Part shown: positions 288 to 4,388 of the stretch, in pieces
How the letters are laid out: each line of letters starts with the position of its first letter
How positions within the stretch are numbered: the first letter of the stretch is position 1
IMG/VR virus record: IMGVR_UViG_2740892218_000001
Location: 1-20,634 of that record
Direction: 5' to 3' (one strand)
DNA from: a virus
Taxonomy: Duplodnaviria > Heunggongvirae > Uroviricota > Caudoviricetes
DNA length: 20,634 bases
Made by a program: the position numbers and the translations under genes
The notes under the pieces: generated by a model
The model's database searches: none
Told to the model about the DNA's origin: nothing
The model's input: only the letters and a program-made list of their open reading frames with translations

Positions 288-355
288 GTTGGTTTTTCTC
301 CACGGATTTACTGACAACCGAAGCCCTGACTGTTCCCGCAGTTGGGGCTTCAACT

Positions 356-607: not shown

Positions 608-859
608 ATGGCTAGAGATGATCCGCACTTTAACTTCCGTATGCCTATGGAAGTAAGGGAGAAATTAAAATTCAGGGCGGAGGCGAATGGGAGATCAATG
701 AACTCCGAGTTGTTACAAATCGTCCAAGATGCTCTATCAAAACCATCGCCTGTGACTGGATATCGCGACGATGCAGAACGACTCGCTGATGAGCAGTCAG
801 AGCTTGTTAAGAAGATGGTGTTTGATACGCTGAAGGATTTGTACAAAAAACCCACCTGA
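608..859 (+). CDS. mnt: Mnt repressor (ribbon-helix-helix), 83 aa
   Basis: MARDDPHFNFRMPMEVREKLKFRAEANGRSMNSELLQIVQDALSKPSPVTGYRDDAERLADEQSELVKKMVFDTLKDLYKKPT, near-identical to P22 Mnt as recalled; divergent from arc. Confidence 0.9.
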   Translation: MARDDPHFNFRMPMEVREKLKFRAEANGRSMNSELLQIVQDALSKPSPVTGYRDDAERLADEQSELVKKMVFDTLKDLYKKPT

Positions 860-869
860 AGGTGGGTTT
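845..869 (-). terminator. Stem-loop (aaacccacc / tgaa / ggtgggttt) with a U6 run on the minus-strand transcript; candidate intrinsic terminator between the convergent mnt and YafO-like genes
   Basis: Perfect 9-bp inverted repeat at 848-856 / 861-869 with a 4-nt loop; on the minus strand it is followed by TTTTTT (845-850). The mnt stop codon sits in the loop. On the plus strand no U-run follows. Confidence 0.45.
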
Positions 870-1317
870 AGTCAAACATAGTGTTTCTAAAGTCTCTCGC
901 ATACCCTGCCAACACTCTCATTCTATTATGATTGTTAGCAGACATGTGAGCTACAGGATGAAAAAGAGCAATCAATGAATACCTGTTCTCATCAAAAAGA
1001 TTTTGTGCATAAACGAGAGCGGTATTGGAAGTTTTATGCCACTGCAACTTTTGCGGTGTGCTGATATCTGTGCCTTTTTTTATTGGCTCAAATTTATTTT
1101 CACCAATTGCTAAATGAAGGTGCATAAGGCCTGCATCTTCAATATCAGGAGGTCGATGATAAGAGGTGTCTCTGCCAAAATAGCTGGGCAACGTTCCCGT
1201 AGACTTGTAGATGATAAAATCATCTACAAGTGTTTGTTTTAAATCAGGAAACTCAACAAAAACCGGGGAGAAAAAATAGTCAAAACTATCCTGATTATAT
1301 TCCACGGTTACTTGCAT
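868..1317 (-). CDS. YafO-family toxin homolog (type II TA toxin family; ribosome-dependent mRNA interferase in E. coli YafO), 149 aa
   Basis: Translation carries the motifs DFIIYKSTGTLPSYFGRD, HLHLA, LVYAQNLFDE...LIALFHP...NNHNRMR, which align with E. coli YafO (DFISYKRDGVLPDIFGRD, HIHLA, LVYCQGAFDE...LIAILKP...DNNQMHK) as recalled from memory. GAGG RBS 5 nt upstream of ATG; AT-rich relative to the structural genes. Confidence 0.65.
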   Translation of the reverse strand: MQVTVEYNQDSFDYFFSPVFVEFPDLKQTLVDDFIIYKSTGTLPSYFGRDTSYHRPPDIEDAGLMHLHLAIGENKFEPIKKGTDISTPQKLQWHKTSNTALVYAQNLFDENRYSLIALFHPVAHMSANNHNRMRVLAGYARDFRNTMFD

Positions 1318-1325
1318 GTTTTACC

Positions 1326-1892
1326 TCAGTGGAAGTTACCAGAGTGAAACACACGAGTCCCGTGCTCAGCAAGCGCACGCAAACCAGCCATATCTACGGA
1401 ACTATCAAAAACAACCGGAACACATGAGCGTTGTTTAATAAGACTATTCAGGTTAGTTACGGCAGATCTAGCATCAGCAACAACGATATAGATATCTCTT
1501 GCGATCTCTTTAAAATCAGCAGAAGCTTCTTTGAATACCGATTTCATTGCCCCTTCAAGTCCTCTCAATTGATGCTCTATCAATCGAGATTTTTCTGGTT
1601 CAATGATAGACAACACATTGTCTACATTTTCATCGGTAGCGTTTGCAAGAACACGATAAGCATATTTCAGCATTCGAGACAATTCTTTAATCGAAGACAC
1701 CGCCTCATGAAGCTCATCATTGGTCCGTTCACTGCTGAGCGAGGATTGATGGTAAGCGTGCTGAACATTATCAGTGACAACCACCTCACAACTGAACGCA
1801 GAAGCTTGCTGTAATAGCAAACCTATTGCGACCCCAGCTTTGGCAGTGTTCAAGCTAAACATTTCATCAATCCCATTAGTCTCATTGCTCAT
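1326..1892 (-). CDS. Hypothetical 188-aa protein, upstream partner of the YafO-like toxin; no family recognised
   Basis: ATG at 1892 (MSNETNGIDEMF...) preceded by AAGGAGG with a 5-nt spacer; the track's TTG start at 1922 would include that RBS. Its TGA stop lies inside the RBS of the downstream toxin gene (8-nt gap), indicating translational coupling. Contains an R-x4-H motif (RALAEH) near the C-terminus. Confidence 0.6.
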   Translation of the reverse strand: MSNETNGIDEMFSLNTAKAGVAIGLLLQQASAFSCEVVVTDNVQHAYHQSSLSSERTNDELHEAVSSIKELSRMLKYAYRVLANATDENVDNVLSIIEPEKSRLIEHQLRGLEGAMKSVFKEASADFKEIARDIYIVVADARSAVTNLNSLIKQRSCVPVVFDSSVDMAGLRALAEHGTRVFHSGNFH

Positions 1893-1918
1893 ACAAACCT
1901 CCTTCTTATCGGAGATTA

Positions 1919-1959
1919 TCAATAGCTATGCATCTATTGAATACACGCTATGCTCAATA
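1919..1959. promoter_or_regulatory. Candidate operator: TCAATAG-N8-CTATTGA inverted repeat centred on ATGCAT, plus a third TCAATA half-site and a GCTATGC direct repeat
   Basis: Read directly: tcaatag (1919-1925) / ctattga (1934-1940), tcaata (1954-1959), gctatgc at 1925-1931 and 1947-1953; sits 27-67 bp upstream of the 188-aa gene start in the divergent intergenic region. Confidence 0.3.
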
Positions 1960-2063
1960 ATTCTACGTCACGTGATATCATTATGCAACCATCGTTCTAT
2001 CACCAGTAGATGATGCCTCTCCATACATCATCTGGTATCCTGCACAAAACTAAGGAGGTTGGT

Positions 2064-2453
2064 GTGAAGCGATTTCTTGCTGCTATGTTCTTATTCATAT
2101 CTTTTGGGGCTACAGCAGAGTGCTGGGTCGTTGGAGATATGCGCGGAATAAGCTATTCAGAACGCAATAATTTCCATCCGGTAGAAGATGGTTTTAGTGG
2201 AACATTCACCATTAAGACAAGCGGTGAAGATGCCAGCATCACATATTCTGGTACAGATGCGGGCGGCATGGCTTACAAAGCATTGTCTAAAAACTCCATC
2301 ATAGGAATCGGCGCGAATGGCGAAACTCAACGCGTTATCGACTCATGGGTAATACATCCTACTGGAACAGTTTTAATGTCAAAAACCATTTCCGGTTATG
2401 GAAATATGGATTCAACCAAAGCTTTTGTTGGAAAAGTAAAAAGAAAATGTTAG
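2064..2453 (+). CDS. Small secreted protein of unknown function (about 129 aa, N-terminal signal peptide), divergent from the toxin operon
   Basis: AGGAGG at 2053-2058 then GTG at 2064; VKRFLAAMFLFISFGATAEC looks like a Sec signal peptide (basic n-region, hydrophobic core, ATA-E cleavage context); mature part is Gly/Ser/Thr-rich with Cys near both ends. The upstream part of track ORF 2010..2453 overlaps the RBS. Confidence 0.55.
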   Translation: MKRFLAAMFLFISFGATAECWVVGDMRGISYSERNNFHPVEDGFSGTFTIKTSGEDASITYSGTDAGGMAYKALSKNSIIGIGANGETQRVIDSWVIHPTGTVLMSKTISGYGNMDSTKAFVGKVKRKC

Positions 2454-2477: not shown

Positions 2478-4388
2478 TTACTGCTGTGTTGCCTCAGTAG
2501 CAAACAGCGGCCTGACGGCATTTGCAGCGTTACTTAACGCTCTTTCATAGGCTGGTGTTCCAGCTTTAGTGTTTGCCAGACGTAAGAGCGCATTCCTTGC
2601 TGCTTTGGACTCGTACAAGCGCATGATTGCACCGAAACCAGCCTCAAGTCCCAGTGATACACCAAGGGTTGCAGTTGCGCCAATCGTTCTAATCCTGTTA
2701 GCTTGCGATTGTCCTGTCTGTGTTACTACATTTGCGGCGTCCGACCTTGCTGTTTGCTGTAGAACTTCATGAAGAGCATCAAGCTCTTTCATGTGTCTCC
2801 CACTGAATATAGTGTTATAGATCTGACCGTCAGATTGCGACTTCAACTTATTTAACTCGGTAAGAAATTTTGTTGGCGAGTCTCCTGCTTTTTCTGCAAT
2901 CTTGCTGATATAAGCAGCACGCATAGCGTTCTTTCCATCTTCACTAAGAGCAGGCCATATCCTCTTAATATCTGATGGTTTTCTGCTGAATACAACGCTG
3001 TTTATTAGCTCTGGAGTAAACTCTTTTTTAGCTTTGTTGAGATTATTCGCAATCCTTTTATTGAGAACTTTATTGAAGACGTTGGAGTAGTCAGAGTTTG
3101 CTTTGACGTATCTGGCGGCCTCTCCAGCCCCCAAATACCGCGCTGCGTTATTCCTCAAATCTGCCCCCATTGCCCTCTCCACGGCATCAGTTGCGGCTTT
3201 CGCGCTATTAGGAAAAACCATGGCATCTCCCTGAATACTTTCCCTCAAGGCTGACCGCAACTCTCTCAATAGACCAAAATCTATATCTGGTTTAGCAAGT
3301 TCTTCTCGCAAATCGGATAACCCGCGAATCAAATCCTTATTTGCCACTTTCCCAAGCCTGTTAGCTCTGGTAAGTACGTTGTCGATAACCTTAATAGATT
3401 TTGATGTGTCAACAGGTGTGTCTCCCATTTTGGTTGTAATGTCTTCAATAACGCTTCCGGCCGAATCCTTCCTTGACTTCAGAGAACCATACAGATCGTC
3501 AACAACAACTGATGGGCTATATTCACCATATTTCTCAAGCTGTTTTTTAACTAGCTGACTTCTTTTTGCATATTGCTCAGCTCGCTTTGAGCCTGTTCCC
3601 AGCAAAGCCCCCTCAGCATCCTGAGTAAGACCACGAGTGAAAGCATTTTTCGGCGGGATTACATCAGATGTCATTGGTGTCACGCCCATCGATTCTGATG
3701 TGGCAATTTTCTTCGCCACTTCTGGTGCAATATCACCTTTAAAGGCAGTTATTCCACGCTCAAGCCCTTTTGCAACAGTATTAACAGCACCACCTGTTAG
3801 CATGCCAACACCTATATCTGTTGCCAGTTTTCCCGCATCATTTTTCTCACTGTTTGCGGCGAGCGATCCGACTGCGTTTTCTGCCAGAAGACGGGCTGCG
3901 CCTTGAGTAATTCGACCAGCAAGTGTTGGCGCCTGAGTTGAAGCGCCGCCAACGCCAACAGTAGTCAGGTAAGGCAATGCCTCCGCAAACACCCTACCTT
4001 CTGTCGTTTGTGGAGTCAGAGCACCTTGCTGAAGTCCAAACGCCTGCTCTAATCCCTGAGTTGTTACTCGTGGCGCTGGTTGATATGTTCCATCGCCAAT
4101 ACCGAGTTTACCGCCAGCCCATGCCGCCGCGCTTGTTACAGCATCGGCAACTGATGCTGGTATATTTGCCACATTTACACCAGCCTGCACCAGTCCGCGA
4201 CCAGTTTCTTTTACTGCTTCGCCGAGGTCAGACATAAATCCATCTTGCTGTTCTACAGGCTGCTTTTGGTTTTGAGTTGGTTGATTACTGGAGGACAGAA
4301 TCTGAGCGATGCGACGTGCTCCCTCAGTATCACCAGCAGCATCAGCATTCCTTAACGCCGTCATCAATTGTTCACGACTATAAGCCAT
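2478..4388 (-). CDS. Ejection (internal) protein, P22 gp16-like, 636 aa
   Basis: Position (last of the 4-10-26-14-7-20-16 block), size, and TAATG stop/start overlap with the upstream gp20-like gene; Ala/Gly-rich composition typical of ejection proteins. Confidence 0.75.
   Translation of the reverse strand: MAYSREQLMTALRNADAAGDTEGARRIAQILSSSNQPTQNQKQPVEQQDGFMSDLGEAVKETGRGLVQAGVNVANIPASVADAVTSAAAWAGGKLGIGDGTYQPAPRVTTQGLEQAFGLQQGALTPQTTEGRVFAEALPYLTTVGVGGASTQAPTLAGRITQGAARLLAENAVGSLAANSEKNDAGKLATDIGVGMLTGGAVNTVAKGLERGITAFKGDIAPEVAKKIATSESMGVTPMTSDVIPPKNAFTRGLTQDAEGALLGTGSKRAEQYAKRSQLVKKQLEKYGEYSPSVVVDDLYGSLKSRKDSAGSVIEDITTKMGDTPVDTSKSIKVIDNVLTRANRLGKVANKDLIRGLSDLREELAKPDIDFGLLRELRSALRESIQGDAMVFPNSAKAATDAVERAMGADLRNNAARYLGAGEAARYVKANSDYSNVFNKVLNKRIANNLNKAKKEFTPELINSVVFSRKPSDIKRIWPALSEDGKNAMRAAYISKIAEKAGDSPTKFLTELNKLKSQSDGQIYNTIFSGRHMKELDALHEVLQQTARSDAANVVTQTGQSQANRIRTIGATATLGVSLGLEAGFGAIMRLYESKAARNALLRLANTKAGTPAYERALSNAANAVRPLFATEATQQ

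What the first reader, a model, noticed from the sequence alone, without database searches (positions are those of the whole stretch)
868..1892. Unrecognised 188-aa protein translationally coupled to a YafO-family toxin, in the slot where P22 carries sieA
Between the last ejection-protein gene and the immI region, where P22 has sieA, this phage has a two-gene operon: an unrecognised 188-aa, probably alpha-helical protein (1326-1892) whose stop codon sits inside the RBS of a 149-aa YafO-family toxin homolog (868-1317). In E. coli, YafO is partnered by the small Phd/YefM-type antitoxin YafN; here the upstream partner is twice that size and unrelated by eye. The upstream protein carries an R-x4-H motif (RALAEH) near its C-terminus, the spacing of the HEPN RNase signature, though this is a weak hint. 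Both genes are AT-rich relative to the flanking structural genes, suggesting an acquired moron. The pair could be a new toxin-antitoxin pairing or a prophage-encoded abortive-infection or exclusion module.
Basis: partly seen in the sequence, partly recalled or inferred. Interest (0 to 1): 0.88.

Follow-up and report, generated by a model that had tools for sequence, protein, structure and literature searches.

The report
Prophage YafO toxin with new partner
A P22-like phage carries a self-contained two-gene cassette, a YafO-type RNA-cutting toxin preceded by an uncharacterised 188-residue helical protein that always travels with it in many different phages, most likely a new kind of antitoxin for a known toxin, though no experiment shows this yet.

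Summary
ORF 868-1317 (-) is a YafO-family toxin (Pfam PF13957, 79 bits against a cut-off of 25; its model's best matches are RelE-type toxins). ORF 1326-1892 (-) is a 188-aa helical protein that matches no Pfam, NCBIfam or PADLOC family. Its TGA stop overlaps the toxin's GAGG ribosome-binding site. The cassette has a conserved promoter and a strong terminator, and its 40.6% GC compares with 48.3% for the window.

The partner belongs to a fast-evolving family of about 170-205 aa. It lies directly upstream of a YafO toxin in all 22 loci examined. These include P22-like, HK639, lambdoid, P2-like, Proteus myovirus and Pseudomonas prophages, and SSU5-like phage-plasmids. Both genes are under purifying selection and diverge together.

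The best reading is a type II-like toxin-antitoxin moron with a new antitoxin family in place of YafN. Its likely role is abortive infection or element maintenance.

The RALAEH "HEPN" motif is not conserved and the fold is a generic helical bundle. P22's sieA position is occupied by the divergent gene at 2064-2453, not by this pair.

One feature is unexplained: many family members start with a signal-peptide-like N-terminus. This is a new variant of a known kind, of moderate interest.

The parts
1960..1988 (-). Putative sigma-70 promoter of the cassette: TTGCAT (1988-1983), 17-nt spacer, TAGAAT (1965-1960)
   Evidence: Read. The TTG of the -35 and the TAnAnT of the -10 are kept in six P22-like loci (alignment A4). 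Upstream non-coding identity is 68-76%, while synonymous sites of the genes are saturated (pS 0.73-0.75). The consensus scan missed it because the -35 matches only 3 of 6. Inferred, not mapped.
1893..1959 (-). 5' leader with the Shine-Dalgarno AGGAGG (1903-1898)
   Evidence: The RBS and start codon are conserved in all aligned loci. They form a 16-nt inverted repeat with the RBS and start of the divergent gene.
1326..1892 (-). 188-aa helical partner protein ('A'), the presumed antitoxin, phrog_8416. Layout: N-terminal hydrophobic helix (residues 11-35), variable linker (36-53), helical bundle (54-156), then a highly conserved but low-confidence C-terminal tail (157-188).
   Evidence: dN/dS is 0.07-0.20. 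No Pfam hit for any of 21 family members.
1318..1328 (-). Coupling junction: TGA stop of A (1328-1326) overlapping the GAGG Shine-Dalgarno (1327-1324) of the toxin; 8-nt gap
   Evidence: A gap of 8-18 nt, or a 10-nt overlap in one locus, is kept in all 22 loci.
868..1317 (-). 149-aa YafO-family toxin ('T'), RelE/ParE (BECR) superfamily
845..869 (-). Intrinsic terminator: 9-bp stem AAACCCACC/GGUGGGUUU, loop UUCA, U-run. It overlaps the toxin stop codon and the mnt stop codon on the other strand.
   Evidence: Fold energy -13.6 kcal/mol, z=-3.6, 0 of 200 shuffles as stable.

Best explanation
The cassette is a self-contained, horizontally mobile prophage moron: promoter, A gene, T gene, terminator. 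It most likely encodes a type II-like toxin-antitoxin pair.

T is a YafO-family RelE-fold endoribonuclease. By homology with E. coli YafO, it would cleave translated mRNA and stop protein synthesis.

A is a member of a previously undescribed helical protein family that takes the place of the Phd/YefM-type antitoxin YafN. A is made first and in at least equal amount because T's ribosome-binding site overlaps A's stop codon. A is inferred to neutralise T by direct binding. The likely binding element is A's most conserved segment, the C-terminal region 'ARSA..LN.LI.Q....P.VF.S..D...L..LA.HGT', which AlphaFold models with low confidence, as expected for a part that folds on its partner.

In the lysogen the pair would be expressed constitutively. 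Loss or sequestration of A would then free T. That could follow shut-off of host gene expression by a superinfecting phage, or loss of the element. The result would be abortive infection or post-segregational killing.

Shown here: gene structure, family membership of T, strict A-T linkage and co-divergence, purifying selection, and mobility among phage moron sites.

Inferred: toxicity, neutralisation by A, the binding region, and the biological role.
For: T is a YafO_toxin member. Its predicted fold matches HigB, RelE, YafQ and YoeB best. It keeps the residues invariant across the family, including K-12 YafO. YafO is an experimentally shown translation-dependent mRNA interferase neutralised by the upstream YafN (PMC2814082).

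A is directly upstream of a YafO toxin in 22/22 loci, with an 8-18 nt gap or a 10-nt overlap. This holds for every one of the 16 phage records that contain a YafO homolog. It also holds when the search starts from toxin homologs.

The contexts differ widely:
- the P22-like region between gp16 and mnt;
- HK639, between the tape-measure and minor-tail genes;
- a Proteus myovirus tail cluster;
- a P2-like int/OLD/Ogr region;
- the int-proximal end of a lambdoid phage;
- the Q-holin slot;
- Pseudomonas phages;
- SSU5-like phage-plasmids.

A and T identities co-vary (Pearson 0.90), and A diverges faster: 67/88, 55/83, 35/62 and about 19/35-40 %. That pattern is usual for antitoxins. Both genes are under purifying selection. 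All 55 E. coli genomes that carry the cassette have it full length. One GenBank record already labels a homologous pair 'antitoxin/YafO toxin'.
Against: A is larger than T and has no recognisable DNA-binding domain for autoregulation. No clear operator palindrome was found.

Many family members begin with a signal-peptide-like segment. If that segment works as a signal peptide, most of A would be outside the cytoplasm, which is hard to reconcile with a classical antitoxin.

The toxins are acidic (pI 5.2-6.4 in most loci), unlike typical RelE toxins.

Neither protein matches a PADLOC defence model, so the defence role rests only on genomic position.
Confidence: 0.7

Rival explanations
1. Export-controlled or membrane-targeted partner. 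The N-terminal segment of A is a real Sec signal or membrane-targeting sequence. Either A is continuously removed from the cytoplasm, so that export rather than proteolysis makes the antitoxin short-lived. Or A sits at the inner membrane and releases T when an incoming phage perturbs the envelope during DNA injection.
For: The N-terminal segment is the most hydrophobic 19-mer in nearly every family member. Many branches show an n-h-c layout with Pro at -5/-6 and A-x-A, for example MNHFKAMSLATMCGVLTQPAALA|EAF and MKFNIQYLHAAVVMVLSSLQPQAKA|AE. A crude rule flags 11/26 family members against 7/146 control ORFs (Fisher p=2e-6), and the listed controls that pass look like membrane, secreted or lipoprotein N-termini. 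The cassette neighbours the sieA-position gene and the DNA-ejection genes.
Against: No dedicated predictor was available. In the window's own clade the segment follows an acidic 10-residue extension (net charge -3) and passes the rule only from the internal Met11. G24-L25-L26 are invariant among the nine closer family members of alignment A3, which is atypical for a plain signal peptide. The phage-plasmid branch lacks the segment. The KD19 value of 1.63 is borderline for a membrane helix.
Confidence: 0.15
2. A is not an antitoxin. It is an independent exported or membrane moron product, or a sensor or activator of T. T would then be kept harmless in another way: low intrinsic activity, cross-neutralisation by a host antitoxin, or dependence on a trigger.
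For: A lacks every hallmark domain of known antitoxins. It is larger than T and has a signal-peptide-like N-terminus in many members.
Against: Strict adjacency, translational coupling and co-divergence hold over 22 loci and down to about 16-19% A identity. These are hard to explain without a direct functional dependence. T is only 37% identical to K-12 YafO, so rescue by YafN is unlikely. No third conserved gene accompanies the pair.
Confidence: 0.1
3. A is a HEPN-type RNase and the pair is a two-nuclease module.
For: RALAEH gives an R-x4-H spacing in the window protein.
Confidence: 0.02

Closest known systems
E. coli K-12 yafN-yafO type II toxin-antitoxin locus (YafO: translation-dependent mRNA interferase; YafN: Phd/YefM antitoxin)
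   Same: The toxin is homologous: same Pfam family, 37% identity, same invariant residues. Gene order is partner first, toxin second, with a very short gap.
   Different: The partner is unrelated: 188-aa helical bundle against 97-aa Phd/YefM (hhalign probability 0.3). The toxin has about 12 extra N-terminal residues and scores below the NCBIfam YafO equivalog cut-off (79 against 153 bits). The pair has its own promoter and terminator inside phages, whereas yafNO sits in the SOS-regulated dinB operon (PMC2814082).
Partner swapping in type II TA systems (Panacea/PanA antitoxins, PMC8832971; RelE/ParE superfamily review, PMC11980606)
   Same: A known toxin fold is combined with a non-homologous neutralising partner. 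The modules are phage-borne and are candidates for anti-phage defence.
   Different: A has no Panacea/DUF4065 or any other Pfam domain. In every locus seen, A pairs with one toxin family only, so there is no evidence of promiscuity.
P22 SieA superinfection exclusion
   Same: Same neighbourhood (between gene 16 and immI). Expressed from its own promoter as a lysogenic-conversion-type moron.
   Different: No sequence relation (hhalign probability 0.2). sieA's exact position and leader are used by the divergent 129-aa gene at 2064-2453, not by the pair.
Prophage or plasmid RelE-fold TA modules that act in abortive infection or maintenance (e.g. the HigBA-SecB TAC module cited in PMC11980606; P1 phd-doc, from general knowledge)
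   Same: A small RNase-type toxin with an upstream partner, carried by temperate phages and phage-plasmids.
   Different: No defence or stabilisation phenotype is known for this pair, and there is no chaperone gene.

Membership tests
YafO toxin family (Pfam PF13957) | Score above the Pfam gathering threshold over the full domain | tested here: met
   79 bits against 25; residues 37-145 match model positions 3-101 of 101.
YafO toxin family (Pfam PF13957) | Equivalog of E. coli K-12 YafO (NCBIfam NF007377 cut-off) | tested here: not met
   79 bits against a cut-off of 153. It is a family member, not the K-12 ortholog.
YafO toxin family (Pfam PF13957) | Residues invariant across the family, including K-12 YafO | tested here: met
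   The G-x-D of F-G-R/K/T-D, the H-x-H, L-V-Y and A/P-H are all kept. Their catalytic role is not established in anything I could read.
RelE/ParE (BECR) superfamily | RelE-like alpha/beta fold | tested here: inconclusive
RelE/ParE (BECR) superfamily | Growth arrest through mRNA cleavage | not testable with these tools
   Needs expression and RNA-cleavage assays.
Type II toxin-antitoxin system | Bicistronic operon; partner immediately upstream and translationally coupled; linkage conserved | tested here: met
   The 8-nt gap has an SD that overlaps the stop codon. 22/22 loci keep the pair with an 8-18 nt gap or a 10-nt overlap. The two genes co-diverge, r=0.90.
Type II toxin-antitoxin system | Antitoxin binds and neutralises the toxin | not testable with these tools
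No experiment exists.
Type II toxin-antitoxin system | Antitoxin carries a DNA-binding domain (RHH, HTH, AbrB, Phd/YefM) for autoregulation | tested here: not met
   No Pfam hit for 21 family members. No match among PDB sequences. The fold is a generic helical bundle. No operator palindrome was found.
YafN / Phd-YefM antitoxins | Homology to PF02604 or to YafN | tested here: not met
   hhalign probability 0.3. YafN itself hits PF02604, and A does not.
HEPN RNases | Conserved R-x4-6-H motif on a four-helix HEPN fold | tested here: not met
SieA superinfection exclusion | Homology to P22 SieA, or occupation of its exact locus | tested here: not met
   hhalign probability 0.2. The sieA leader and start codon belong to ORF 2064-2453.
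Catalogued anti-phage defence systems (PADLOC-DB 2.0) | Match to a defence-system protein model | tested here: not met
   No significant hit for A or T. The only hit is a weak ZorA tail match, E=0.007, 13 bits.

The most novel reading that the evidence does not exclude
The A family is a new class of toxin partner whose N-terminal signal-like segment sends it to or through the inner membrane. The level of cytoplasmic antitoxin would then be set by export or membrane association rather than by proteolysis. A phage-borne YafO RNase would fire when an incoming phage shuts off host expression or disturbs the envelope during DNA injection. This would be a membrane-coupled abortive-infection switch carried next to the ejection-protein and sieA-position genes of P22-like prophages.
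Probability: 0.12. Interest if true: 0.85.

Novelty: new variant of a known kind. Interest (0 to 1): 0.5.

Why it matters
YafO is one of the classic E. coli mRNA interferases, but only the chromosomal yafNO pair has been studied. This analysis indicates that on mobile elements YafO toxins are partnered by a different, unnamed protein family. That held for all 16 phage records with a homolog. The toxin also occurs on 619 plasmid records, and the cassette itself is in 55 of 5426 complete E. coli genomes, including ExPEC/APEC strains S88 and APEC O1 and the type strain. Genome annotation, and papers on Pseudomonas and Salmonella prophages, currently list these toxins as orphans or pair them with the wrong gene (PMC10449497, PMC9836087).

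Defining the partner would give annotators a new antitoxin family. It would also give a testable candidate for the unexplained phage-resistance phenotypes of some lysogens. If the signal-like N-terminus proves functional, it would be a new way of controlling a toxin.

Tried and rejected
- HEPN reading: rejected. The motif is not conserved and the fold is generic.
- Relation of A to YafN or SieA: none.
- The afdb50 fold library: unavailable.
- The search for related loci with family alignments: failed for lack of a conserved 7-10 residue block. Single distant members found nothing in viral contigs or genome contigs. Their contexts were covered instead through phage-record loci.
- Operator search in the promoter region: no convincing palindrome. 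The 8-nt match to the arc operator half-site and the 7-nt match to the mnt operator are within chance.
- Rfam: nothing in the cassette beyond terminator-like partial hits.
- Literature searches for a described partner or defence role of phage YafO modules: nothing found. That library lacks most subscription journals, so absence there is not proof.

Full report
**What is there**

On the minus strand the window carries a compact cassette.
- A putative sigma-70 promoter: TTGCAT-17-TAGAAT, 1988-1960.
- A leader of about 60 nt with AGGAGG (1903-1898).
- A 188-codon ORF, 1892-1326, called A here.
- An 8-nt gap in which A's TGA overlaps a GAGG Shine-Dalgarno sequence.
- A 149-codon ORF, 1317-868, called T here.
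- A 9-bp GC-rich hairpin with a U-run, 869-845.

The hairpin folds at -13.6 kcal/mol, z=-3.6. The cassette is 40.6% GC against 48.3% for the window, placing it in the lowest 0.8% of windows of the same size.

The flanks are as follows. On one side lie a gp20 homolog (Inj_translocase) and the gp16-position protein. On the other lie mnt, arc and sar RNA.

**The toxin**

**The partner**

A has no hit in Pfam, NCBIfam or PADLOC, and belongs only to PHROG 8416, 'unknown function'. An exhaustive profile search of 1.84 billion representatives found just 23 clusters. All but three short hits are 167-190 aa, plus one of 249 aa. None of the 21 aligned members hits any Pfam family.

The strongest family conservation is in the last 50 or so residues: ARSA..LN.LI.Q....P.VF.S..D...L..LA.HGT. 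The R and H of RALAEH are not conserved. R172 is C or K in close relatives, and H177 is Y or S elsewhere. The HEPN hint therefore fails.

**Linkage**

Every relative of A that I could place has a YafO toxin immediately downstream. The gap is 8-18 nt, or in one case a 10-nt overlap, across 22/22 loci. The contexts differ widely:
- P22-like prophages of E. coli and Salmonella, in the same region;
- HK639, between the tape-measure and minor-tail genes;
- Proteus myovirus tail clusters;
- a P2-like int/OLD/Ogr region;
- the int-proximal end of lambdoid PhiR40_1, where the depositor wrote 'YafM antitoxin / YafO toxin';
- the Q-holin slot and a head-tail junction;
- three Pseudomonas phages;
- SSU5-like phage-plasmids.

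The converse also holds. All 16 phage records with a YafO homolog have an A-family ORF upstream by HMM.

A and T identities co-vary (r=0.90), and A diverges faster: 67/88, 55/83, 35/62 and about 19/35-40 %. Both genes are under purifying selection, with dN/dS of 0.07-0.20 for A and 0.03-0.16 for T. The 118 nt upstream of A stay 68-76% identical in loci whose synonymous sites are saturated, which points to a constrained promoter and leader. The cassette is present, always full length, in 55 of 5426 complete E. coli genomes, including S88, APEC O1 and ATCC 11775. YafO homologs lie on 619 plasmids, mostly non-mobilizable replicons; the listed records are mostly about 110 kb.

**Position relative to P22**

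In P22 the order is gene 16, then sieA on the opposite strand with its own promoter, then t_mnt, orf59a and mnt. The window's divergent ORF at 2064-2453 (+) shares 33 identical nucleotides of leader, RBS and GTG start with sieA, but encodes an unrelated 129-aa protein with a signal peptide. The A-T pair lies between that gene and mnt. 'In the sieA slot' is therefore only approximately right.

**Interpretation**

The simplest account is a type II-like toxin-antitoxin moron in which a new helical family replaces YafN. The operon structure, strict linkage and co-divergence are shown here. Toxicity, neutralisation through the conserved C-terminal tail, and a role in abortive infection or element maintenance are inferred.

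The role rests on the module's repeated appearance at moron or defence-type positions, on its presence in phage-plasmids, and on published hints. One such hint is the mTmII prophage, which carries yafO and reduces phage sensitivity by an unknown mechanism (PMC9836087). Pseudomonas prophage surveys list the toxin as an orphan (PMC10449497). I found no paper describing the partner.

**An unexplained feature**

The N-terminal segment is the most hydrophobic stretch in nearly all members. In many branches it looks like a Sec signal peptide: a basic n-region, a 9-13-residue h-region, and Pro plus A-x-A. A crude rule flags 11/26 members against 7/146 control ORFs, p=2e-6.

In the window's clade the segment follows an acidic 10-residue extension and carries an invariant GLL motif. 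It may therefore be masked or repurposed there. No dedicated predictor was available. If the segment is functional, the partner would be exported or membrane-targeted, which has no precedent that I know of among type II antitoxins. Other possibilities are a hydrophobic degron, a toxin-docking helix, or simply a core helix of the bundle.

**Verdict**

The feature is real and non-random. It is a new variant of a known kind: a known toxin family with a new, uncharacterised partner family, widely spread among temperate phages. Interest is moderate at 0.5. It would be higher if the signal-like N-terminus proves functional.

Noticed in passing
window 2064-2453 (+): A 129-aa ORF with a GTG start and RBS AAGGAGG at 2052-2058. 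It has a clear signal peptide (MKRFLAAMFLFISFGATA|E), belongs to phrog_2651 and has no Pfam hit. It shares P22 sieA's leader, RBS and start codon but not its protein, so it is the true occupant of the sieA position. The gene at this position differs in every related locus (75-297 aa).
   Followed up: partly
window 1889-1904 and 2052-2067: The RBS plus start codon of the A gene and of the divergent gene form a 16-nt, 88% complementary inverted repeat. Each is AAGGAGGTT(T/G)GT(A/G)TGA on its own strand.
   Followed up: no
window 1994-2002 (-): TGATAGAAC lies just upstream of the putative -35. It is nearly invariant in six P22-like loci, and its first 8 nt (TGATAGAA) match the left half of the window's own arc operator (560-580). 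Chance is about 0.07. Possible cross-talk with immI was not tested.
   Followed up: no
window 288-355 (+), 531-553, 560-580: sar antisense RNA (Rfam RF00262, 95.6 bits), and the mnt and arc operators of a P22-type immI region, nearly identical to P22.
   Followed up: partly
L012 4893-5675; L013 4643-5116 and 1389-3146: In Proteus-type loci a PF12869 (tRNA_anti-like OB-fold) gene sits just upstream of the A-T pair in two unrelated prophage contexts. L013 also has an OLD-family nuclease and an Ogr/Delta gene nearby, as in a P2-like defence hotspot. The unit may therefore be larger than two genes.
   Followed up: no
window 2478-4388 (-): The 636-aa protein at the gp16 position has no Pfam match, although relatives at the same position hit PF26808 (Phage_P22_gp16). 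It appears to be a divergent ejection-protein variant.
   Followed up: no
window 868-1317 (-) and homologs: The YafO-family toxins of these modules are acidic (pI 5.2-6.4 in most loci). They carry about 12 extra N-terminal residues that K-12 YafO lacks, possibly the surface specific to the new partner.
   Followed up: partly
L014 1000-1431: A 143-aa YafO ORF follows the A homolog but was not called as a gene in the source collection. Apparent 'orphan' A genes in gene-call tables can be artefacts.
   Followed up: yes
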